A stretch of 40,220 bases of DNA from a virus (lineage: Duplodnaviria > Heunggongvirae > Uroviricota > Caudoviricetes): the IMG/VR virus record IMGVR_UViG_2671181134_000016; one strand, 5' to 3'. The position numbers and the translations under genes are program-made. Shown here piece after piece: positions 11,545 through 36,406 of this stretch. Every line of letters starts with the position of its first letter. Position 1 is the first letter of the stretch. Below the pieces are notes generated by a model. That model was given only the letters and a program-made list of their open reading frames with translations. It made no database searches and was not told where the DNA came from.

Positions 11545-11550
11545 GGCTTA
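11532..11550. terminator. Hairpin at the convergent junction of Q and the reverse cassette (putative bidirectional terminator)
   Basis: TAAGCCC-ctgta-GGGCTTA, overlapping both stop codons; no clean T-run. Confidence 0.4.
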
Positions 11551-12132
11551 ATAATTCATATGAATTCTGTTTCCGAGATAATATAATCCAAAGAAAGTTG
11601 ATACTAAGAGTTGCCAAACGAGGAAAGTAAATACAACAGTATAAACCATTAAAACAATACTGTTTTGATAGACATTGATTAATGGTGAAAATATAGCATT
11701 AAGTATTATTATAACAATGCTTAATGCTGTTAAAAAAGAGAATAGCATGCAAAGAAATAAGCGTCTGGTCAGAACCTCCTCTGAATTTACTACTTTTCCA
11801 TTTTCTTTTGTTACTTTTATTTCAATAGAGGCATTTCTTTCATTGCTAATCAATGGTAAATCAATCTCAGCTCTATTGAAAGTTGCTATGGCGGCCAGAG
11901 CGGCAATATAAAACCCTGGTAGGTTAGAGATAAATGAAACGATTGATTTAATGAAACCATTGTCATCAAATAAATCTTTGACAGGGATTTTTAATAGAAT
12001 GAAAAGTACTGCTGTGATAGAAGTAAGTAGAATTGGTGCTACCCAATCATATGCAGCTTTGCCGCTAATACCTTTAATAAAAAGATATCCAAACGGCTTG
12101 CCTAGATGAGAGAAAACTGAAAGTATTGGCAT
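11548..12132 (-). CDS. Cassette gene C: 4-TM integral membrane protein of unknown family
   Basis: 194 aa with four hydrophobic spans; GAGG before ATG at 12132; AT-rich; last gene of a three-gene operon. Confidence 0.7.
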   Translation of the reverse strand: MPILSVFSHLGKPFGYLFIKGISGKAAYDWVAPILLTSITAVLFILLKIPVKDLFDDNGFIKSIVSFISNLPGFYIAALAAIATFNRAEIDLPLISNERNASIEIKVTKENGKVVNSEEVLTRRLFLCMLFSFLTALSIVIIILNAIFSPLINVYQNSIVLMVYTVVFTFLVWQLLVSTFFGLYYLGNRIHMNY

Positions 12133-12139
12133 AATAACC

Positions 12140-12559
12140 TCACATCAAATCTATCATTTTCACAACAAACTCTAGTTCAATTTTAACATATGAATCCTTC
12201 AGGCGCGAATTAAAGTTATCGATAATGCTTTTCTTAATAAATGTTTTTTCTAAATTATTAAGATTGATGTTTGAGGTTTTGAAATCAACCTGCCTTGGTT
12301 TATTTGTTTCAGGATCTTGGAATTTAACCTTTAATTTATCATAACCACCATTCATTTTTTTATTGAAATGAGATGCTACATTTTTAATCCATCCAATAAC
12401 ATTGTCACCATGATTTGGAAGTAATTTTAATGTACTTTCAGTCGGAATGTAAGGTGAATTAACATCAGGAGCATTAATTGTTCCGAATTGATCCTTGACT
12501 AATATGACATCTGATAATCCTTTTTGGCTTATTTTATTAAAAAGCTCCTTGTCTAACAT
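12140..12559 (-). CDS. Cassette gene B: soluble protein of unknown family
   Basis: 139 aa; ATG overlaps stop of gene A (ATGTTAG), indicating translational coupling. Confidence 0.65.
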   Translation of the reverse strand: MLDKELFNKISQKGLSDVILVKDQFGTINAPDVNSPYIPTESTLKLLPNHGDNVIGWIKNVASHFNKKMNGGYDKLKVKFQDPETNKPRQVDFKTSNINLNNLEKTFIKKSIIDNFNSRLKDSYVKIELEFVVKMIDLM

Positions 12560-13161
12560 TCCTGTAAATTCAAATATTGGTTTGTATCGTATTTTACTTC
12601 TTTTTTTGATGTTGCAGAAATAACGTTAGTTGGATGTTTTGCGGTAAATAAGTCTTCATTGTCTTTCGCCACTTCAAAGAGAATTTTGTCTAAAAAACTA
12701 TTTAACCGGGCCGTAGATACACCTGGGGTAGATGTACAAATCATATCATAGGTTCTTTTATTTCCATTTAATGATATGACAACATAGGTAGAAACTTCAT
12801 AGCCTTCACCTTGTTCATATTTTGGTTGGATTTCAACGCGTTCATTAGTATTTGTATTTTTTACAACGGTAGTACTTCCATTTTTATCAACACTATTAAT
12901 AAGAAGGACAATATGCGTGGGTGAGTTATCTGGAAGTAAAGGATAAAGTTGTACATCTTGGAGAGTAACTACAATATTCCCAGAATCATATGAATGAACG
13001 AGTCCCTTTTGTTTAACAATCAATGGGGCAAGCATGTACATTTCCGGAACAGGACATATACACTGGGCTTTTACCTCTTGTGTTGCCTTGGTTCTAAACT
13101 TTGTGTCAATGGTCAGACTATGATGAGTAACGAGTCTTTCGCTAGCATTTAATTTTGCCAT
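12553..13161 (-). CDS. Cassette gene A: soluble beta-rich protein of unknown family
   Basis: 202 aa; ATG at 13161; AT-rich; first gene of the reverse-oriented operon inserted between Q and the late operon. Confidence 0.65.
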   Translation of the reverse strand: MAKLNASERLVTHHSLTIDTKFRTKATQEVKAQCICPVPEMYMLAPLIVKQKGLVHSYDSGNIVVTLQDVQLYPLLPDNSPTHIVLLINSVDKNGSTTVVKNTNTNERVEIQPKYEQGEGYEVSTYVVISLNGNKRTYDMICTSTPGVSTARLNSFLDKILFEVAKDNEDLFTAKHPTNVISATSKKEVKYDTNQYLNLQEC

Positions 13162-23805: not shown

Positions 23806-23976
23806 ATGTTTGTCAAACCTGTTAAAGGGCGGTCAGTTCCTGACCCTGCCCGCGGCGACCTTTTGCCCGCCGAAGGGCGAAATGTTGACGAGAACAACTA
23901 CTGGCTGCGCCGTGAAGCAGCGGGTGATATCCGGCGCGTGAATAAAAAGGTGAACACCGATGACGATAAGCTTTAA
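23806..23976 (+). CDS. Small protein (56 aa) preceding tail sheath, not in the ORF track
   Basis: ATG at 23806, stop at 23974-23976, overlaps the sheath start; Mu-like tails carry a small gene here. Confidence 0.4.
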   Translation: MFVKPVKGRSVPDPARGDLLPAEGRNVDENNYWLRREAAGDIRRVNKKVNTDDDKL

Positions 23977-25456
23977 CACCATTCCGTCGAATACGCTGGT
24001 TCCGTTGTTTTATGCGGAAATGGATAACCAGGCGGCGAATACTGCACAGGACAGCGGAGCATCGCTGCTGATTGGTCATGCCAATAACGGTGCAGAGATT
24101 GTTGCCAACAGTCTGGTACTGATGCCGTCGGCAGACTATGCACGCCAGATTTGTGGTGCGGGAAGTCAGCTGGCGCGTATGGTCGAGGCTTATCGCCAGA
24201 CTGACCCGTTTGGCGAGCTGTATGTGATTGCCGTTCCGGAAGCCACAGGCGCGGCGGCAACGGTTACGCTGACGGTGACCGGGGCGGCAACCGAAACCGG
24301 CACGGTGAATGTTTATGTGGGACGTACCCGCGTGCAGGCACCGGTGACCAATGGCGATAACGTCGCGACGATTGCCGGCAGTATCCAGGATGCCATCAAT
24401 GCCGTTCCGGCCCTGCCGTTTACGGCTTCATCTTCGGCAGGCGTGGTCACACTGACCGCGCGTCATAAGGGGCTTTGCGGGAATGAAATTCCTGTCAGCC
24501 TCAATTACTACGGCTTTGGTGGGGGCGAAGTGCTGCCTGCGGGCGTACAGATTGCCGTGGCGACGGGTACCGCCGGAACGGGTGCTCCGGTTCTCACCGG
24601 CGCGGTGGCTGCAATGGCGGATGAGCCGTTTGATTATATCGGCCTGCCGTTCAACGACACGGCCTCCGTTAACACGCTGGTGACCGAGATGAACGATACC
24701 AGCGGTCGCTGGAGCTATGCGCGTCAGCTGTATGGTCATGTGTATACGGCAAAGATCGGCACGCTGTCAGAACTGGTGACCGCAGGTGACCAGTTTAACC
24801 AGCAGCACATTACCCTGGCGGGGTACGAAAAAGAGACCCAGACGCCTGCCGACGAACTGGCGGCAAGCCGTACCGCCCGCGCAGCGGTGTTTATTCGCAA
24901 CGATCCGGCACGTCCCACGCAGACCGGTGAGCTGGTGGGTATGCTGCCTGCGCCGAAGGGGAAACGGTTCACGATGACCGAACAACAGACCCTGCTGTCT
25001 CATGGCGTGGCAACGGCGTATGTCGAAAGCGGGGTACTGCGCATTCAGCGTGATGTCACCACGTACAGGAAAAACGCTTACGGGGTTGCGGATAACAGCT
25101 ACCTAGACAGTGAGACTCTGCATACCAGCGCGTATGTACTGCGCAAACTGAAATCCGTCATTACCAGTAAGTACGGGCGTCACAAGCTTGCCAGTGACGG
25201 TACCCGCTTTGGTCCCGGTCAGGCGATTGTCACCCCGGCGGTGATCAAAGGAGAACTGCTGGCAACCTACCGTCAGCTTGAGCGTGCGGGGATCGTGGAA
25301 AACTACGCACTGTTTAAGCAGTACCTGGTTGTGGAGCGTGATGCCAGCGATCCGAACCGCCTGAACACGCTGTTCCCGCCTGACTATGTTAACCAGTTGC
25401 GTGTCTTTGCCGTGGTTAACCAGTTCCGTCTTCAGTATTCAGAGGAGTCCGCATAA
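23960..25456 (+). CDS. Contractile tail sheath protein (Mu gpL-like)
   Basis: 498 aa; followed by tube and chaperone genes. Confidence 0.85.
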   Translation: MTISFNTIPSNTLVPLFYAEMDNQAANTAQDSGASLLIGHANNGAEIVANSLVLMPSADYARQICGAGSQLARMVEAYRQTDPFGELYVIAVPEATGAAATVTLTVTGAATETGTVNVYVGRTRVQAPVTNGDNVATIAGSIQDAINAVPALPFTASSSAGVVTLTARHKGLCGNEIPVSLNYYGFGGGEVLPAGVQIAVATGTAGTGAPVLTGAVAAMADEPFDYIGLPFNDTASVNTLVTEMNDTSGRWSYARQLYGHVYTAKIGTLSELVTAGDQFNQQHITLAGYEKETQTPADELAASRTARAAVFIRNDPARPTQTGELVGMLPAPKGKRFTMTEQQTLLSHGVATAYVESGVLRIQRDVTTYRKNAYGVADNSYLDSETLHTSAYVLRKLKSVITSKYGRHKLASDGTRFGPGQAIVTPAVIKGELLATYRQLERAGIVENYALFKQYLVVERDASDPNRLNTLFPPDYVNQLRVFAVVNQFRLQYSEESA

Positions 25457-25812
25457 TGGCCCGTATCGGGGGAACCTGTTATTTCAAAATTGACGGTCAG
25501 CAGCTATCGCTGACCGGCGGCATTGAGGTGCCCATGAACAGGACGGTCAATGATGACATCATCGGCCTGGACGGTTCAGTGGACCGCAAGGAAACTCACC
25601 GTGCGCCTTATGTCAAAGGGACCTTCAAGGTGCCGAAGAATTTTCCGGTGAGCAAAATCACCTCGTCTGATGAGATGACCATCACTGCCGAGCTGGCGAA
25701 CGGTCAGGTCTATGTACTGTCGTCTGCCTGGCTGCACGGCGAAGCGAACCATAATGCCGAAGAAGGCACGGTCGATCTTGAGTTCCACGGTGAAGAAGGG
25801 GATTACCAGTAA
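25456..25812 (+). CDS. Tail tube protein (Mu gpM-like)
   Basis: 118 aa directly after the sheath. Confidence 0.8.
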   Translation: MARIGGTCYFKIDGQQLSLTGGIEVPMNRTVNDDIIGLDGSVDRKETHRAPYVKGTFKVPKNFPVSKITSSDEMTITAELANGQVYVLSSAWLHGEANHNAEEGTVDLEFHGEEGDYQ

Positions 25813-26081
25813 TGAAAGAGCTTGAGTTAAAGAAACCGATTACCGCTCATGGCGAGACACTCTCCGTACTGGAGTTTGATGAGCCCACCGGGAAAGATGT
25901 CCGCGAGCTGGGGTATCCCTACCAGATGAATCAGGATGAGTCCGTCAGACTTCTGGCGCATGTGGTGTCGAAATACATTGTGCGGCTGGCGAAAGTGCCG
26001 CAAAGCTCTGTCGACCAGATGTCTCCGGCAGACCTGAATGCAGCGGCGTGGCTTGTGGCTGGTTTTTTCCTCCAGGCCTGA
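25812..26081 (+). CDS. Tail assembly chaperone (short form)
   Basis: 89 aa upstream of tape measure; contains slippery heptamer T TTT TTC at 26063-26069. Confidence 0.7.
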   Translation: MKELELKKPITAHGETLSVLEFDEPTGKDVRELGYPYQMNQDESVRLLAHVVSKYIVRLAKVPQSSVDQMSPADLNAAAWLVAGFFLQA

Positions 26082-26230
26082 CGGCTGAATACCTCACTGA
26101 TCGCTTCTTTGACTGCGCCAGCTACTGGCGCATTAATCCCTTCGAATTGCTGAATATGCCGATCAGTGAAATTCCCTTGCTGGTCAGTCAGGCAAACAGG
26201 ATAGAGCAGGAGAAACGCACACATGGCTGA
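25812..26230 (+). CDS. Tail assembly chaperone, long form via programmed -1 frameshift at 26063-26069
   Basis: -1 frame is open from the slippery site to 26230 and overlaps the tape-measure start. Confidence 0.55.
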
Positions 26231-28055
26231 ATTTGAGCTTAAGGCGTTGATCACCGGTGTCGACAGGCTTTCTCCCGCGCTGTCGAAAATGCAAAAGAAA
26301 ATCCGGGGATTTAAACGCCAGGCGGAAGAAGCGTCACAGGGTGGGCTGGCGCTTGGTGGAGGACTGGCAGCGGGGCTGACGCTTTCCCTGAAATCTTATG
26401 CCGATCAGGAAAACGCCGCTACCGGGCTGAAAGTCGCCATGATGGATGCGAACGGCGAGGTTGGAAAGAGCTTTCAGGACATCAATAAACTGGCTATTGG
26501 CCTGGGTAACCAGCTACCCGGTACAACGGCTGATTTCCAGAACATGATGCAGATGCTGGTGCGTCAGGGGATCCCGGCAGAAAACATTCTGGGTGGTGTG
26601 GGTAAAGCGACAGCTTATCTTGCGGTACAACTGAAAAAAACACCGGAAGCGGCTGCTGAGTTTGCTGCAAAGATGCAGGATGCTACCGGAACGGCGTCAG
26701 AAGACATGATGGGGCTGTTCGACACTATCCAGAAGGCGTTTTATCTGGGCGTTGACGATACCAACATGTTGTCCTTCTTCACTAAAACCAGTTCTGTTCT
26801 GAAGATGGTGAACAAGGACGGTCTTCAGGCTGCACAGAGCCTTGCCCCCATCAGCGTCATGATGGATCAGATGGGGATGAACGGGGAGTCGGCAGGTAAT
26901 GCCCTGCGAAAAGTTATCCAGTCCGGATTAAGTGTTAAGAAAATCAGGGACGTCAATAAAGTCATGGCCCGCCAGAAACTCGGGGTACAGCTCGATTTTA
27001 CTGACGGCAAAGGAAGTTTTGGCGGTCTTGATAACATGTTCAGGCAACTGGCAAAGTTGCGAAAACTGACCGACGTTAAGCGAACAGGCGTACTTAAGGC
27101 AATATTTGGTGATGATGCCGAAACCCTTCAGGTGGTCAATGCCCTGATCGATAAAGGAAAGGATGGCTACGATCAGATCCAGCAGAAGATGAATAAACAG
27201 GCCAGCCTGAATAAACGTGTTCAGGCTCAGCTTGGTACGCTGTCCAACCTGTGGGAGGCAATGACGGGGACCGCAACTAACGGTCTTGCAGCTATTGGCG
27301 GCGCATTTTCTGGTGACGCTAAAAATATCACGCAATGGCTGGGGGAGTTGGGGGAAAAATTCACGAAGTTTGCGGATGAAAATCCCCGGGTTATTCGCGG
27401 CGTCGTCGGGCTTGCTGCCGGTCTTGCGATTCTGAAACTGGGATTGATGGGCGTTGGCGGTGCCATCAGTATTGTCAGCAGGATCATGTCGATGACGCCG
27501 ATTGGCATGATTGCGACGGCGATAGCCCTGGCTGCGGGATTAATTATCACTAACTGGGATGTTGTCGGACCTTATTTTAAGAAACTCTGGGAAACCATTG
27601 GTCCTTATTTTGAGGCTGGCTGGGAACTCCTTAAGAAAGTTTTTGCCTGGTCGCCGCTGGGGATGGTGATCAATAACTGGGGGCCGGTTGTTAAGTGGTT
27701 TCAGGATATGTGGGACAAGCTGAAGCCAATTATTGAGTGGTTTACCGACAGTTCCGGTGACACGGTCGATGCCATTAACTCTGCGCAGTGGGGCGCGGGT
27801 GCTTATGATGCTTATGGGACGGGAATACCGACGCGGGGATACACACCTTATCCGGCGGTGGATCCGGCTCAGTCAAACAACGCCTCCGATGCCACAGGCC
27901 CGAATCCCTTCATGATTAACAAAGCTATCGCGCCAAAAGTTGATGGCGAGATCAAGGTTTCATTTATGAATATGCCACCAGGTATGCGGGTTACGGAAAC
28001 ACGTTCCAGTGGCATTGATATTAATCACGATGTTGGGTACACCAGATTTAGGTAA
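26223..28055 (+). CDS. Tail tape measure protein
   Basis: 610 aa, Ala/Gly-rich with hydrophobic C-terminal segments. Confidence 0.85.
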   Translation: MAEFELKALITGVDRLSPALSKMQKKIRGFKRQAEEASQGGLALGGGLAAGLTLSLKSYADQENAATGLKVAMMDANGEVGKSFQDINKLAIGLGNQLPGTTADFQNMMQMLVRQGIPAENILGGVGKATAYLAVQLKKTPEAAAEFAAKMQDATGTASEDMMGLFDTIQKAFYLGVDDTNMLSFFTKTSSVLKMVNKDGLQAAQSLAPISVMMDQMGMNGESAGNALRKVIQSGLSVKKIRDVNKVMARQKLGVQLDFTDGKGSFGGLDNMFRQLAKLRKLTDVKRTGVLKAIFGDDAETLQVVNALIDKGKDGYDQIQQKMNKQASLNKRVQAQLGTLSNLWEAMTGTATNGLAAIGGAFSGDAKNITQWLGELGEKFTKFADENPRVIRGVVGLAAGLAILKLGLMGVGGAISIVSRIMSMTPIGMIATAIALAAGLIITNWDVVGPYFKKLWETIGPYFEAGWELLKKVFAWSPLGMVINNWGPVVKWFQDMWDKLKPIIEWFTDSSGDTVDAINSAQWGAGAYDAYGTGIPTRGYTPYPAVDPAQSNNASDATGPNPFMINKAIAPKVDGEIKVSFMNMPPGMRVTETRSSGIDINHDVGYTRFR

Positions 28056-28087: not shown

Positions 28088-28534
28088 TTACTGTGCGAAC
28101 ACGCAATTTCGGCCTGATGGGGAGCCGACAATTCTGGACATTTTTTCGCAAATAACAGTTACTTGTTCTCCTTTTTTAAGAGCAGCAGCTGTTGATTTTT
28201 CAGAGTCTTGCATCTCCATTCTTGCTGGCATGAATTCATTTTCAGTTCTGAATTTAATAATTATAGAGTCAGTAAAGTCCTTATCAATGGATTGTACGAT
28301 ACCTCTAACGGCGATTAATTTACCTTTTAACTGTTCATCGGTAGCGACTTCATTTTCTTCATACTCTTTAAACAGCTGTCGAGCAGTAGTGTTGTAGATT
28401 TCTTTTTGCGGTGCCGCAGCTTCCGTATCGGATGAGTATGAAGAATTAGAGCCTTTATCGTTATTGCCTGCAAAATATCCAATAATCACCAACCCGATGA
28501 AAATATATAAAATCCATTTTAATAATTTCTTCAT
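28088..28534 (-). CDS. Moron: N-terminally membrane-anchored protein with OB-fold-like (tRNA_anti-like) C-terminal domain
   Basis: MKKLLKWILYIFIGLVIIGYFAG signal-anchor; AT-rich; opposite strand inside the tail operon. Confidence 0.6.
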   Translation of the reverse strand: MKKLLKWILYIFIGLVIIGYFAGNNDKGSNSSYSSDTEAAAPQKEIYNTTARQLFKEYEENEVATDEQLKGKLIAVRGIVQSIDKDFTDSIIIKFRTENEFMPARMEMQDSEKSTAAALKKGEQVTVICEKMSRIVGSPSGRNCVFAQ

Positions 28535-33645: not shown

Positions 33646-34308
33646 ATGCATCGTATAGACACGAAAACCGCGCAGAAGGATAAGTTCGGCGCGGGTAAGA
33701 ACGGTTTTACCCGTGGTAACCCCCAGACTGGCACACCTGCCACCGATCTGGATGATGACTACTTTGATATGTTGCAGGAAGAACTCTGCAGCGTGGTGGA
33801 GGCATCCGGTGCCAGCCTGGAGAAGGGGCGAAACGACCAGTTGCTTACCGCGCTTCGTGCTCTGCTGTTAAGCCGCAAGAATCCGTTTGGTGATATCAAA
33901 TCGGATGGCACGGTGAAAACGGCTCTCGAAAACCTTGGTTTGGGAGAAGCGGCAAGACGGGGGGTGGGAACAGGGGAAAATCAGATACCGGACATGGCTT
34001 CATTTAGTGGGGTGAGGGATTATTACGGAAAACAACTTTTGCCAGGAGGGTTGATACTTCAGTGGCTGACGATTCCATCAAGTGCAGCAGCTAAAGCTGT
34101 AACACTGAATAATGGTAATTATCAGCTGTCAGGCTATAAATGGCCCCAGTCATTTGGTGTCCTGTTTGCTGTGTTTGCCACAAAAGTTTCTGGCTCGACT
34201 AACGAAGCATATGCAATCTCAGTTAATCGTCACTCTACCGATGTAATTGTCACCTGGAATGCCCGTAAGGCTGATGATGTCCACATTTTAGGAATTGGGA
34301 AATTATGA
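33646..34308 (+). CDS. Tail fibre protein: constant N-terminal part (to about 33948) fused to the currently expressed variable C-terminal part
   Basis: GGAG Shine-Dalgarno; the inversion crossover site lies inside the gene at codons 97-101. Confidence 0.8.
33935..33949. repeat. Left inversion crossover site (TTGGTTTGGGAGAAG)
   Basis: Perfect 15-bp inverted repeat with the right site; embedded in the tail fibre gene. Confidence 0.65.
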
Positions 34309-34724
34309 AAATGAAATGGTCCCCATCTGTTCAGGGATTTTTCTCTGAAAATAACAGCGATATTCCCGATGATGCTTTCGATATTGAAGATGCTCTTTAT
34401 TATGAACTTATGAATGGTCAGAGTACGGGGAAAATTATTATCAATAACCCGGATAACTACCCTGTACTTACTGAATATCCAGCGAAGACACAGGAACAGG
34501 AAATAGCTGAAGCGGAGGGAATGAAAAGTATACTTATTGAACAGGCCAACGAATACATGAACAGTAAGCAATGGCCTGGTAAAGCCGCTATTGGTCGTCT
34601 GAAAGGTGAGGAACTGGCGCAATATAATTTGTGGCTGGATTATCTGGACGCACTGGAACTGGTTGATACCTCCAGTGCGCCAGATATTGAATGGCCTACG
34701 CCTCCGGCAGTTCAGGCCAGATGA
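34305..34724 (+). CDS. Tail fibre assembly protein (Tfa, expressed orientation)
   Basis: C-terminal conserved Tfa motif (...WPTPP...); coupled to the tail fibre stop. Confidence 0.8.
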
Positions 34725-35298
34725 CATCCGGCGCGGTGCTGGTATCTGTTGCCGTCACCGAGTCAATGTAATCCAGCACAGCGTTAAGTCGGGTGTTTTC
34801 TGTCTGCGTCAGCTTCCGCCCGGCCTGTAATTTCAGTTGAATCAGACTGATGGAAGCCATTGCAGCATCAATCAGCGACTGGCGCTGTGCTTCTGCCGCT
34901 TCTACTGCGGCGCTATGCTGTGCCTCAGTATCGGTCACCCATTTCTCACCATCCCATTCATCGTATGGCGTTAACGGGGCGATAGTGGTTGTATTTTCAG
35001 GATAATCACCCGGAGTTGTGATTTCTTTCGATTCTCCTGTTTCGGTGCTATAGATGATTTCACCGCGATGATCTGGTACATATTCCCATGAGTTAAAATC
35101 TGCAGAGCGGCAGATTGCATAACCAGCTTTGTAGGTGCCTGGAGCATCTAAACAGGAATATGCCGGAATGCCGACACCAACAGCAAGATATTCAGTTGAA
35201 GCTGAAATATACTCCCGACTCATGACGTCAAAGTTATAAACAGTAATTTCTCCTGCCATAGTGGCAATTAATTCACTGTTTAATTCTGCGTTATTCAT
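34696..35298 (-). CDS. Alternative tail fibre assembly protein (Tfa', silent orientation)
   Basis: C-terminus ...[12 protein letters not shown] is Tfa-like; convergent with Tfa. Confidence 0.75.
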   Translation of the reverse strand: MNNAELNSELIATMAGEITVYNFDVMSREYISASTEYLAVGVGIPAYSCLDAPGTYKAGYAICRSADFNSWEYVPDHRGEIIYSTETGESKEITTPGDYPENTTTIAPLTPYDEWDGEKWVTDTEAQHSAAVEAAEAQRQSLIDAAMASISLIQLKLQAGRKLTQTENTRLNAVLDYIDSVTATDTSTAPDVIWPELPEA

Positions 35299-35783
35299 TA
35301 TGCAGCCCTCACAATATAGTTAAAAGCGACATTTCGTGGGCGTGTTTCATTCGCACCTGCAGGTTTAGTCGTTGCCGCAACAACACCACCCTCTGTAATA
35401 GCCGGGTTGGGAATTGGGTAATTATCGAAGTCAATGGCTGGAGACAGGGGCGTGATTTGTTTTAAAATCGTGGTGCCTGTAAAACTTCCCAGAGTCTGGT
35501 CGTTAGTTCGTGAAGTCCAGATTCCCCAATAGTGGTTATGACTGACAATCGCACCGTCCTGAAGCGTTAATAATCCCCTTCCGTTATCCACTCCACGTCC
35601 GTCATCCCAGCCACGAATAAACTCACCGCGTAAATCAGGTAATTTATTTGTCGGATAAGCCTTTGCCAGTTCCGGGTATTCTTCAGCAGAAAAAGCTGCT
35701 CCGTTGCATTTCAGCCAGCCTGTTGGCGGAGTGGCTGAAGGCCACGGAACAGGCACACCAACGGGTAATGCTGAGCCTTCTCC
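35298..35783 (-). CDS. Alternative tail-fibre variable C-terminal segment (Sv'), lacking its own start; fused to the constant part upon inversion
   Basis: The frame continues from the crossover repeat (GLGE) with no ATG; the track's 'M' at 35786 is a TTG. Confidence 0.7.
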   Translation of the reverse strand, partial: GEGSALPVGVPVPWPSATPPTGWLKCNGAAFSAEEYPELAKAYPTNKLPDLRGEFIRGWDDGRGVDNGRGLLTLQDGAIVSHNHYWGIWTSRTNDQTLGSFTGTTILKQITPLSPAIDFDNYPIPNPAITEGGVVAATTKPAGANETRPRNVAFNYIVRAA

Positions 35784-35791
35784 CAAACCAA
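35777..35791. repeat. Right inversion crossover site (reverse complement of TTGGTTTGGGAGAAG)
   Basis: Inverted copy immediately upstream of the invertase gene. Confidence 0.65.
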
Positions 35792-35857
35792 CCTTTTAGA
35801 AAATGCAGTTGTTTCGTTCAGGTGGCATGATTCCGGCTTTTTACAGGGCTATTTATC

Positions 35858-36406
35858 ATGCTTATCGGCTATGTACGCGTGTCAACAAATGACCAGAACA
35901 CGGCATTGCAGCGAAACGCGCTGGATTGCGTAGGATGTGAACTGATATTCGAAGATAAGATCAGCGGCAGAAGTCTGACAGACCGGGACTGAAGAAGGTG
36001 CTCAGGACGCTATCAGAAGGCGATACGCTGGTGGTCTGGAAACCGGATCGTCTCGGTCGCAGCATGCGGCATCTTGTCGTTCTGGTGGAGGATACGGGAA
36101 AGAGGGATTAACTTTCGCAGCCTGACCGACAGCATAGACACATCTTCGCCAATGGGGCGTTTTTTCTTTCACGTTATGGGCGCTCTGGCTGAAATGGAGC
36201 GAGAACTGATTGTCGAACGCACTAGGGCGGGCCTTGCCGCGGCTCGTGAAGAAGGGCGGATCGGTGGGCGTCGTCCAAGGCTAACAGATGAGCAATGGGT
36301 GCAGGCAGGAAGATTGATAGCTGCTGGGGAATCACGGCAGCGCATAGCGATCATCTATGATGTTGGCGTATCGACGCTGTATAAAAAATTCCCGGTTAAT
36401 TGTTAA
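35858..36406 (+). pseudogene. pin: Pin/Gin/Hin-family serine DNA invertase disrupted by two compensating frameshifts (-1 near 35969-35977, +1 near 36091-36094)
   Basis: N-terminus MLIGYVRVSTNDQNT and C-terminus RERGINFRSLTDSIDTSSPMGRFFFHVMGALAEMERELI are in the same frame; the middle (DRPGLKKVLRTLSEGDTLVVWKPDRLGRSM) is in another frame; stop at 35990 in the start frame. Confidence 0.8.

What the first reader, a model, noticed from the sequence alone, without database searches (positions are those of the whole stretch)
25812..26230. Programmed -1 ribosomal frameshift in the tail assembly chaperone
The chaperone ORF ends at 26081, but 12 nt upstream of its stop lies a canonical slippery heptamer T TTT TTC (26063-26069). 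The -1 frame stays open from there to 26230 and overlaps the tape-measure start. This is the conserved G/GT-type chaperone arrangement found upstream of tape measure genes in long-tailed phages.
Basis: partly seen in the sequence, partly recalled or inferred. Interest (0 to 1): 0.45.

Follow-up and report, generated by a model that had tools for sequence, protein, structure and literature searches.

The report
Tail chaperone -1 frameshift site
This is the standard programmed -1 ribosomal frameshift that lets a phage make a short and a long tail-assembly chaperone from one gene; it is real and strongly conserved, but it is a textbook feature that genome annotations miss, not a new mechanism.

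Summary
An 89-codon gene (25812-26081) lies between the tail tube and tape measure genes of an SfV-like E. coli prophage. It carries T TTT TTC (26063-26069) in the X XXY YYZ phase, three codons before its stop. The -1 frame then runs open to TGA at 26228-26230 and overlaps the tape measure ATG (26223) by 8 nt. The short product belongs to Pfam PF10109, the P2 gpE / Mu gp41 chaperone family.

A heptamer alone is weak evidence: the window's genes hold 43 in-phase ones. The comparative evidence is decisive:
- All 85 distinct relatives, down to about 40% identity, keep T TTT TT[C/T] in phase.
- The -1 frame is always open for 51-69 codons and is under purifying selection.
- Most relatives have no start codon for the second ORF.
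- The fusion profile aligns end to end with P2 E+E', with the slip sites in the same columns.

I found no conserved downstream RNA structure and no upstream Shine-Dalgarno sequence, as reported for P2. The site differs from Mu, which shifts -2.

Verdict: a genuine, unannotated member of the known G/GT (P2 E/E+E') frameshift class. Interest is low. The practical value is correcting annotation in about 1,000 E. coli genomes.

The parts
25456..25812 (+). Tail tube protein gene (118 aa), immediately upstream. Its stop overlaps the chaperone ATG by 1 nt. It is the likely binding partner of the T domain (inferred).
   Evidence: PF10618 Tail_tube, E 2.4e-33; ORF list.
25812..26081 (+). Zero-frame tail assembly chaperone gene ('G', the P2 gpE equivalent), 89 aa, ending with TGA at 26079-26081.
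   Evidence: PF10109 Phage_TAC_7, E 5.4e-16, 58.8 bits against a cut-off of 25. PHROG 166 'tail protein', E 7e-24. 158 homologues, almost all 89 aa. dN/dS 0.14.
26063..26069 (+). Slippery heptamer T TTT TTC in the X XXY YYZ phase. The zero-frame codons are GGT TTT TTC (Gly84 Phe85 Phe86).
   Evidence: In-phase T TTT TT[C/T] is present in 85/85 distinct relatives (83 with C, 2 with T). The codon supplying X is GGT in 82 and AGT in 3, while the preceding codon uses all four Ala codons and the following codon varies. GGT makes up only 24% of Gly codons elsewhere in G and T. 'GGTTTTTT' is invariant in the 17-sequence alignment.
26069..26230 (+). -1 frame extension ('T' segment, the P2 E' equivalent): 53 codons (PPGLTAEYLTDRFFDCASYWRINPFELLNMPISEIPLLVSQANRIEQEKRTHG) plus TGA at 26228-26230. 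It is read only after the shift.
   Evidence: Open in the -1 frame. Relatives have 0 stops in this frame against 1-7 in the zero frame and 0-6 in the +1 frame. Conserved motif FDCAxYWRINPxELL...QANRI. Pairwise differences by codon position are 0.34/0.27/0.50. dN/dS is 0.24. No -1-frame start codon upstream of the heptamer in 10 of the 21 loci examined, 17 of them distinct. Matches PHROG 32181 'unknown function', which is this segment annotated as a separate ORF.
25812..26230 (+). Span of the predicted frameshift fusion protein GT: 139 aa, from 25812-26069 plus 26069-26227, with one base read twice.
   Evidence: Translation. A profile of 14 GT fusions aligns with P2 E+E' (142 aa) over 121 columns, E 8.5e-5, with the GFF slip residues in the same columns.
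26208..26213 (+). AGGAGA Shine-Dalgarno sequence for the tape measure gene, 10 nt before its ATG and inside the 3' end of the T segment.
   Evidence: Read directly from the sequence.
26223..28055 (+). Tape measure protein gene (610 aa). Its ATG overlaps the T stop in ATGGCTGA.
   Evidence: PF10145 PhageMin_Tail, E 9.8e-27. The overlap ATGGCTGA recurs in most relatives.

Best explanation
This is a programmed -1 ribosomal frameshift site of the G/GT (P2 E/E+E') type in an SfV-like temperate myovirus.

Inferred mechanism: most ribosomes read GGU UUU UUC CUC CAG GCC UGA and release the 89-aa chaperone. In a minority, the two tRNA-Phe molecules on UUU (P site) and UUC (A site) slip back one base and re-pair with UUU UUU. 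Translation then continues in the -1 frame (CCU CCA GGC ...) to the UGA at 26228-26230 and gives a 139-aa fusion.

Inferred function, by analogy with lambda gpG/gpGT and P2 E/E+E': the shared N-terminal domain coats the tape measure protein, the C-terminal T domain recruits the tail tube protein, and the fixed low ratio of long to short product is needed for correct tail assembly. Neither protein should remain in the virion.

Shown here: the anatomy, family membership, conservation of the slip site, coding constraint on the -1 frame, and the lack of an independent start. Not shown: the fusion protein itself, its ratio to the short form, and its binding partners.
For: - Anatomy: heptamer in the correct phase; -1 frame open for 55 codons up to the tape measure start.
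- Context: sheath, tube, PF10109 chaperone, tape measure.
- Conservation: 108 related loci, 85 distinct sequences, G identity down to about 40% (Derxia, uncultured proteobacteria). Every one carries in-phase T TTT TT[C/T].
- The zero-frame stop moves between 16 and 55 nt after the heptamer, while the heptamer and the -1 peptide stay fixed.
- Synonymous constraint is confined to the heptamer: GGT 82/85 against 24% elsewhere, and TTT 17/17 against 55% elsewhere.
- The -1 frame behaves as coding sequence: no stops, dN/dS 0.24, 52% synonymous differences against 10-11% in the other frames.
- No -1-frame ATG/GTG/TTG upstream of the heptamer in 10 of the 21 loci examined, 17 of them distinct.
- Homology to P2 E+E' across both domains, with slip sites aligned: P2 GGTTTTTTG, here GGTTTTTTC.
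- Literature: P2 is reported to shift -1 at TTTTTTG to make 91-aa E and 142-aa E+E', with no downstream structure (PMC3091744). U_UU.U_UU.C belongs to the H_HH.U_UU.Y class, which is among the most shift-prone heptamers in E. coli, and it is used by IS elements (PMC4066793).
Against: - No protein-level evidence exists for this phage or its close relatives. I found no paper that reports it.
- In a reporter without stimulators, UUUUUUC shifts at only 0.12% (PMC4066793 Table S3). I found no conserved stimulator, so the real efficiency is unknown and could be very low.
- PGAP, RefSeq SfV and other records do not annotate a fusion.
- The hhalign match to P2 E+E' is modest (probability 60%, E 8.5e-5). 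The T segment alone has no Pfam hit.
Confidence: 0.9

Rival explanations
1. The same long protein is made, but by transcriptional slippage. RNA polymerase adds one extra U on the T6 run, so a subset of mRNAs carries G and T in one frame and ribosomes read them normally.
For: The site is a homopolymer run. Two relatives have T7. A7 and U7 runs are known to cause transcriptional slippage (PMC4066793; PMC5009743). The protein product would be identical, so sequence analysis cannot separate the two routes.
Against: From general knowledge: efficient slippage by E. coli RNA polymerase needs runs of about 8-9 or more, and here the run is 6. The strict phase conservation (the run always starts on a third codon position, 85/85) is what tandem tRNA slippage requires; polymerase slippage would not need it. 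The homologous P2 site is reported as a translational frameshift (PMC3091744).
Confidence: 0.05
2. The -1 ORF is a separate small gene (60 aa) that starts at GTG 26048. It is annotated that way in phage vB_EcoM-689R6 and grouped as PHROG 32181.
For: A GTG lies in the -1 frame 15 nt before the heptamer. ON470584 annotates it as a 'hypothetical protein'. PHROG 32181 matches it at E 3e-41.
Against: 10 of the 21 loci examined (17 of them distinct) have no ATG/GTG/TTG in the -1 frame between the upstream stop and the heptamer, and the others differ in codon and context. The 16 nt before the GTG (ACCTGAATGCAGCGGC) contain no Shine-Dalgarno-like sequence. The conserved peptide begins exactly at the heptamer. 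The homologous P2 E' has no independent start.
Confidence: 0.03
3. There is no recoding. The heptamer and the open -1 frame are coincidental, and the 141 nt between the chaperone stop and the tape measure start are a non-coding spacer.
For: In-phase slippery heptamers are common: 43 in this window's genes. Database annotations leave the interval empty.
Against: Universal conservation of the heptamer and its phase. The -1 frame is free of stops in every relative, whereas the zero frame always has at least one and the +1 frame has stops in all but one. The coding signature is frame-specific. The arrangement is homologous to P2 E+E'.
Confidence: 0.01

Closest known systems
Bacteriophage P2 gpE / gpE+E' (-1 frameshift at T TTT TTG in the FETUD tail operon; Christie et al. 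2002, as summarised in PMC3091744)
   Same: Same Pfam family (PF10109). Same position between the tube and tape measure genes. Nearly the same product sizes (89/139 aa here, 91/142 aa in P2). The slip site lies in the same aligned columns and has the same first eight bases, GGTTTTTT. The long product ends 8 nt inside the tape measure gene in both. Neither has a downstream stimulatory structure.
   Different: The last base of the heptamer is C, not G, so the A-site codon is Phe UUC rather than Leu UUG. Sequence identity is only about 23%. The surrounding tail genes are Mu-like (DNA circulation protein, gp44-type hub, gp48), not P2 FI/FII/U/D. The zero-frame stop is 3 codons after the site, against 6 in P2.
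Bacteriophage lambda gpG / gpGT (-1 frameshift at G GGA AAG; Levin 1993; Xu, Hendrix and Duda 2004, 2013, 2014, as reviewed in PMC5009743)
   Same: Same logic and gene position: two products share an N-terminus, the long form is made by a -1 shift just before the stop of the first ORF, and the locus sits directly upstream of the tape measure gene.
   Different: No detectable sequence similarity. Different heptamer and different tRNAs (Phe-Phe rather than Gly-Lys). This is a contractile-tail phage, so the T-domain partner would be a tube protein inside a sheath.
Bacteriophage Mu gp41 (tail assembly chaperone with a -2 frameshift; Xu et al. 2004, as cited in PMC5009743 and PMC2628397)
   Same: The neighbouring tail genes here are Mu-type. 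gp41 is in the same Pfam family description ('E, or 41 or 14'). The Mu extension has a weakly similar C-terminal motif.
   Different: Mu shifts -2, and its extension lies in the +1/-2 frame after a G-run. Here the +1/-2 frame has 5 stops and the -1 frame is the open one. Mu gp41 is 144 aa and shows no significant profile similarity (E 0.026 over 27 columns).
Stimulator-dependent bacterial -1 frameshift sites (dnaX, IS3/IS911)
   Same: An X XXY YYZ heptamer with tandem tRNA slippage. U_UU.U_UU.C is itself used by some IS elements.
   Different: Those sites rely on an upstream Shine-Dalgarno sequence, a downstream hairpin or pseudoknot, or both. Neither is conserved here.

Membership tests
G/GT-type tail assembly chaperone frameshift (Xu, Hendrix and Duda 2004 class) | Two overlapping ORFs located between the major tail or tube gene and the tape measure gene | tested here: met
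   Tube 25456-25812, G 25812-26081, -1 ORF to 26230, tape measure 26223-28055.
G/GT-type tail assembly chaperone frameshift (Xu, Hendrix and Duda 2004 class) | [quoted passage not shown] | tested here: met
   T TTT TTC at 26063-26069, starting on a third codon position, 3 codons before the stop.
G/GT-type tail assembly chaperone frameshift (Xu, Hendrix and Duda 2004 class) | The second ORF has no initiation signal of its own and is reachable only by the shift | tested here: met
   No -1-frame start codon upstream of the heptamer in 10 of the 21 loci examined, 17 of them distinct. No Shine-Dalgarno sequence before the window's GTG.
G/GT-type tail assembly chaperone frameshift (Xu, Hendrix and Duda 2004 class) | The slip site and both reading frames are conserved among diverged relatives | tested here: met
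   85/85 distinct sequences keep the in-phase T-run. The -1 frame is open in all of them, with dN/dS 0.24.
G/GT-type tail assembly chaperone frameshift (Xu, Hendrix and Duda 2004 class) | Two proteins are made at a fixed ratio, both are required for tail assembly, and both are absent from virions | not testable with these tools
   Needs a Western blot or mass spectrometry plus genetics. No publication found for SfV-type phages.
P2 gpE / E+E' family (Pfam PF10109 Phage_TAC_7) | N-terminal chaperone domain scores above the Pfam gathering threshold | tested here: met
   58.8 bits against a cut-off of 25. All 14 aligned relatives also match.
P2 gpE / E+E' family (Pfam PF10109 Phage_TAC_7) | Slip site at the position homologous to P2 GGT TTT TTG | tested here: met
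   hhalign places GFF of this family opposite GFF of P2 E+E'. The DNA reads GGTTTTTTC against GGTTTTTTG.
P2 gpE / E+E' family (Pfam PF10109 Phage_TAC_7) | The C-terminal extension is homologous to P2 E' | tested here: inconclusive
   The hhalign alignment runs through the E' region (query 82-130 against P2 81-135), but overall probability is 60% at E 8.5e-5. The T segment alone has no significant Pfam hit.
P2 gpE / E+E' family (Pfam PF10109 Phage_TAC_7) | P2-type tail gene neighbourhood (FI, FII, E, T, U, D) | tested here: not met
   The downstream genes are Mu-type: DNA_circ_N, gp44-like hub, Baseplate_J, Mu gp48. The phage is SfV-like.
Mu gp41-type chaperone with a -2 frameshift | The extension is encoded in the +1/-2 frame after a G-rich slip site | tested here: not met
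   The +1/-2 frame has 5 stops in the interval and the -1 frame has none. The slip motif is a T-run, not Mu's G-run.
Stimulator-dependent -1 frameshift sites (dnaX / IS3 type) | A conserved hairpin or pseudoknot 5-9 nt downstream, or a Shine-Dalgarno sequence 6-17 nt upstream | tested here: not met
   The 50 nt downstream fold no better than shuffles (z +0.71). The consensus fold is -4.35 kcal/mol with no covariation. Both named helices fail the shuffle and slide controls. An SD-like motif occurs in only 2 of 17 relatives. No Rfam hit.

The most novel reading that the evidence does not exclude
Both this family and P2 shift without any RNA stimulator. The bare heptamers give only about 0.1% in a reporter (UUUUUUC 0.12%, UUUUUUG 0.118%), yet P2-type phages are said to shift 2-3 times more often than lambda. 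The ratio may therefore be set by an undescribed stimulator. One candidate is the conserved nascent peptide W-x-V-A-G-F-F in the exit tunnel, or the conserved Gly codon (GGU) immediately 5' of the slip site. The two most distant relatives have instead acquired a strong hairpin 1-2 nt after the site.
Probability: 0.15. Interest if true: 0.4.

Novelty: new member of a known kind. Interest (0 to 1): 0.15.

Why it matters
The main value is annotation. This prophage region matches 1,089 of the 5,426 complete E. coli genomes searched, and 895 of them hold most of the query. In the records I inspected (PGAP, RefSeq SfV), the 141 nt between the chaperone and tape measure genes are left empty. One phage record annotates the T segment as a free-standing 'hypothetical protein', and it seeds a PHROG of unknown function. 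Annotating the 139-aa fusion would correct these records and give the T segment a function.

The site also adds a well-sampled family (85 distinct sequences) in which a U UUU UUC site is maintained with no detectable RNA stimulator. That is a modestly useful data point on how tail-chaperone ratios are set. It does not change current understanding of frameshifting or tail assembly.

Tried and rejected
- **Downstream stimulatory structure.** An 8-bp hairpin (UGCGCCAG-CUA-CUGGCGCA, 26114-26132) appears in single-sequence folds. It starts 44 nt after the heptamer, lies on the most conserved T-domain codons (DCASYWRI), and shows no covariation; changes in relatives break its pairs. A 4-bp hairpin at 26075-26086 is paired in only 66% of cells. 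I rejected both as stimulators.
- **Upstream Shine-Dalgarno stimulator.** Present in only 2 of 17 relatives.
- **Rfam.** No family matched anywhere in the window.
- **Structure prediction.** The G domain alone gave a poor model (pLDDT 55, pTM 0.36), so I ran no fold search.
- **Solved structures.** The PDB sequence search with the GT profile gave nothing meaningful (E 0.034 to an unrelated ApcE2 chain).
- **Antisense ORF 25931-26254 (107 aa).** It is interrupted by stops in most relatives, and its first codon positions coincide with the most variable sites, so I treat it as spurious.
- **In-frame G-T fusions in the protein database (P0001-P0006).** Most are single-contig singletons, and each has scrambled residues at or before the T-run. 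These look like assembly indels, not natural fusions.
- **Primary papers.** Xu 2004, Christie 2002 and Allison 2002 are not in the held library. Statements about P2, lambda and Mu therefore rest on secondary accounts (PMC3091744, PMC5009743, PMC2628397). I could not check whether Xu et al. 2004 already list SfV.
- **First viral-contig scan.** It returned only 100%-identical copies. I obtained diversity by querying with diverged relatives instead.

Full report
**What the window is.** The region around the finding is 98.6-99.1% identical to Shigella/Escherichia phages SfV, SfI, SfII and vB_EcoM-689R6, and 100% identical to prophages in several E. coli chromosomes. In total, 1,089 of 5,426 complete E. 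coli genomes have a match. Pfam gives the gene order:
- tail sheath, 23960-25456
- tail tube, 25456-25812 (PF10618)
- an 89-aa protein, 25812-26081 (PF10109 'Phage tail assembly chaperone proteins, E, or 41 or 14', 58.8 bits against a cut-off of 25)
- tape measure protein, 26223-28055 (PF10145)
- a reverse-strand insert
- Mu-type DNA circulation protein and gp44-type baseplate hub

**Checking the observation.** The sequence reads ...GCT GGT TTT TTC CTC CAG GCC TGA. TTTTTTC occupies 26063-26069 and starts on a third codon position, which is the X XXY YYZ phase needed for tandem slippage. The -1 frame is open from there to TGA at 26228-26230. That stop overlaps the tape measure ATG (26223) in ATGGCTGA. 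The shifted product would be 139 aa. Nine nucleotides, not twelve, separate the heptamer from the stop codon; otherwise the coordinates are exact.

**Is it more than chance?** The heptamer alone is not. 49 likely genes of the window (11,205 codons) contain 43 in-phase XXXYYYZ heptamers. Only two of these lie near a 3' end with a -1 frame that continues more than 100 nt past the stop. One is this site. The other is in a gene broken by a 1-nt deletion (see the last section). The decisive evidence is comparative.

**Comparative evidence.**
- I collected 108 related loci: 20 from one-genome-per-species bacterial contigs and 88 from viral contigs, using two diverged relatives as queries. They cover G-protein identities from 100% down to about 40%, including Derxia gummosa and uncultured proteobacteria.
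- All 85 distinct sequences carry T TTT TT[C/T] in phase: 83 with C and 2 with T.
- The codon that supplies the first T is GGT in 82 and AGT in 3. The codon before it uses all four alanine codons about evenly, and the codon after the heptamer varies (CTC, ATG, CTT, GGG, CTG, TTG, GGC).
- Elsewhere in these genes GGT makes up only 24% of glycine codons and TTT 55% of phenylalanine codons. The synonymous constraint is therefore confined to the heptamer.
- The zero-frame stop moves between 16 and 55 nt after the heptamer, while the heptamer stays fixed.

**The -1 frame is coding.**
- In every relative the -1 frame is open for 51-69 codons. It encodes a conserved peptide (FDCAxYWRINPxELL...QANRI) that begins at the heptamer.
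- Over the same interval the zero frame has 1-7 stops and the +1 frame 0-6.
- Pairwise differences by codon position are 0.34/0.27/0.50.
- dN/dS is 0.24, against 0.14 for the G domain.
- 52% of differing codons are synonymous in the -1 frame, against 10-11% in either other frame.
- The 107-aa antisense ORF that overlaps the region is interrupted by stops in most relatives.

**Independent initiation is unlikely.** The window has a GTG in the -1 frame 15 nt before the heptamer, and one phage record annotates a 60-aa 'hypothetical protein' from it. PHROG 32181, of 'unknown function', is this segment. However, 10 of the 21 loci examined (17 of them distinct) have no ATG/GTG/TTG in the -1 frame between the preceding stop and the heptamer, and the window's GTG has no Shine-Dalgarno sequence.

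**Relation to known systems.** P2 E ends ...GTC GGT TTT TTG TCG..., so the DNA motif is GGTTTTTTG against GGTTTTTTC here. A profile of 14 reconstructed GT fusions aligns with P2 E+E' over 121 columns (E 8.5e-5, probability 60%). The GFF slip residues fall in the same columns and the alignment continues through E'. P2 is reported to shift -1 at TTTTTTG, making a 91-aa E and a 142-aa E+E', with no downstream RNA structure (PMC3091744). The sizes here are 89 and 139 aa. Mu is reported to use a -2 shift (PMC5009743; PMC2628397). Its extension does lie in the +1/-2 frame after a G-run. Its profile similarity to this family is not significant (E 0.026 over 27 columns). This phage therefore combines Mu-type tail genes with a P2-type chaperone and slip site.

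**Stimulators.** I found none that is conserved.
- The 50 nt after the heptamer fold no better than shuffled sequence (z +0.71).
- The alignment consensus fold is -4.35 kcal/mol with no covariation.
- An 8-bp hairpin at 26114-26132 starts 44 nt downstream and sits on the most conserved codons. Substitutions in relatives break it rather than compensate, and both named helices fail the shuffle and slide controls.
- An upstream SD-like motif occurs in only 2 of 17 relatives.
- Rfam gives no hit.
- Only the two most distant lineages (L098/L099 and L103) have strong hairpins, starting 1-2 nt after the site (-21 and -22 kcal/mol, z -2.8 and -2.3).

**Expected efficiency.** Sharma et al. 2014 place H_HH.U_UU.Y among the most efficient heptamer classes in E. 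coli and find U_UU.U_UU.C in IS elements. Their Table S3 gives UUUUUUC as 0.12% without a stimulator, 0.89% with the IS911 signals and 7.6% with the IS3 pseudoknot. UUUUUUG gives 0.118%, 0.247% and 0.765%. P2-type phages are said to shift 2-3 times more often than lambda (PMC5009743), so something in the native context probably helps. What that is remains open, and it is the only mildly novel angle. Their genome-wide screen lists five prophage clusters, none of which is this one.

**Mechanism (inferred).** E. coli decodes both UUU and UUC with a single tRNA-Phe species (anticodon GAA; general knowledge). With UUU in the P site and UUC in the A site, both tRNAs can re-pair one base back on UUU UUU. 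Translation then continues CCU CCA GGC... to the UGA at 26228. Most ribosomes do not slip and terminate at 26079-26081. They cannot couple to the tape measure start 141 nt away, which has its own AGGAGA at 26208-26213. By analogy with lambda (PMC5009743), G and the G part of GT bind the tape measure protein, and the T part recruits the tube protein. These functional steps are not shown here.

**Verdict.** This is a genuine, conserved member of the known G/GT (P2 E/E+E') frameshift class, and it is not annotated in the records I inspected. Confidence that the long product is made by recoding at this heptamer is about 0.9. Transcriptional slippage on the T-run is the only rival that sequence data cannot fully exclude. 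Interest is low.

**Seen in passing.**
- A candidate defence pair, PDC-M53A/B, lies on the minus strand at 11548-13161. The A gene is split by a 1-nt deletion (A5 to A4, about 12598) relative to nine other E. coli genomes, where it is an intact 340-aa CDS.
- A reverse-strand gene that SfV lacks sits between the tape measure and DNA circulation genes.
- There is an apparent invertible tail-fibre segment with a truncated serine invertase.

Noticed in passing
window 11548-13161, minus strand: Three AT-rich ORFs lie between the Q-antiterminator region and the lysis genes, and they match the candidate defence system PDC-M53 in PADLOC. ORF 11548-12132 is a full-length PDC-M53B (E 2e-54). PDC-M53A is split into 12553-13161 (model positions 4-165 of 320) and 12140-12559 (positions 225-318). 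An in-phase A AAA AAA at 12613-12607 made this look like a second -1 frameshift site. However, nine other E. coli genomes have one extra A in a nearby run (GAAGTAAAAATACG, against GAAGTAAAATACG here, about 12598) and an intact 340-aa CDS. The split is therefore a 1-nt deletion or an assembly error, not recoding.
   Followed up: yes
window 28088-28534, minus strand: A 148-aa reverse-strand gene (N-terminal hydrophobic helix plus a PF12869 tRNA_anti-like OB fold, E 2.9e-19) is inserted between the tape measure and DNA circulation genes. In phage SfV itself these two genes are only 45 nt apart, so this is a moron-like insertion in the tail operon. It has no PADLOC match.
   Followed up: partly
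window 33646-36406: This looks like a Mu G-segment-like invertible tail-fibre cassette. A fibre C-terminal ORF and an assembly gene (33646-34724) lie on the plus strand, facing a second assembly gene and a collar-domain fibre end (34696-35786) on the minus strand. The cassette is flanked by 24-nt inverted repeats at 33926-33949 and 35777-35800 (88% complementary). A serine recombinase ORF follows at 36074-36406. It matches only positions 87-144 of the resolvase catalytic domain plus HTH_7, so it appears to be N-terminally truncated.
   Followed up: partly
L098/L099 1750-1770 and L103 1752-1789 (related loci): The two most distant relatives (an uncultured proteobacterium, which has T7 instead of T6C, and Derxia gummosa) have strong hairpins starting 1-2 nt after the heptamer (-21 and -22 kcal/mol, z -2.8 and -2.3). 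The enterobacterial clade has none. This may be a lineage-specific stimulator.
   Followed up: partly
protein database hits P0001-P0006: A few in-frame 'G-T fusion' proteins exist in metagenome and Logan assemblies. Most are single-contig singletons, and each has scrambled residues at or just before the T-run. They look like homopolymer indel errors at the slippery run, not natural fused genes.
   Followed up: partly
window 26048-26230; PHROG 32181; GenBank URC08943.1: The T segment is annotated in at least one phage record as a stand-alone 60-aa hypothetical protein, and it forms its own PHROG of unknown function. PGAP and RefSeq SfV leave the interval empty.
   Followed up: yes
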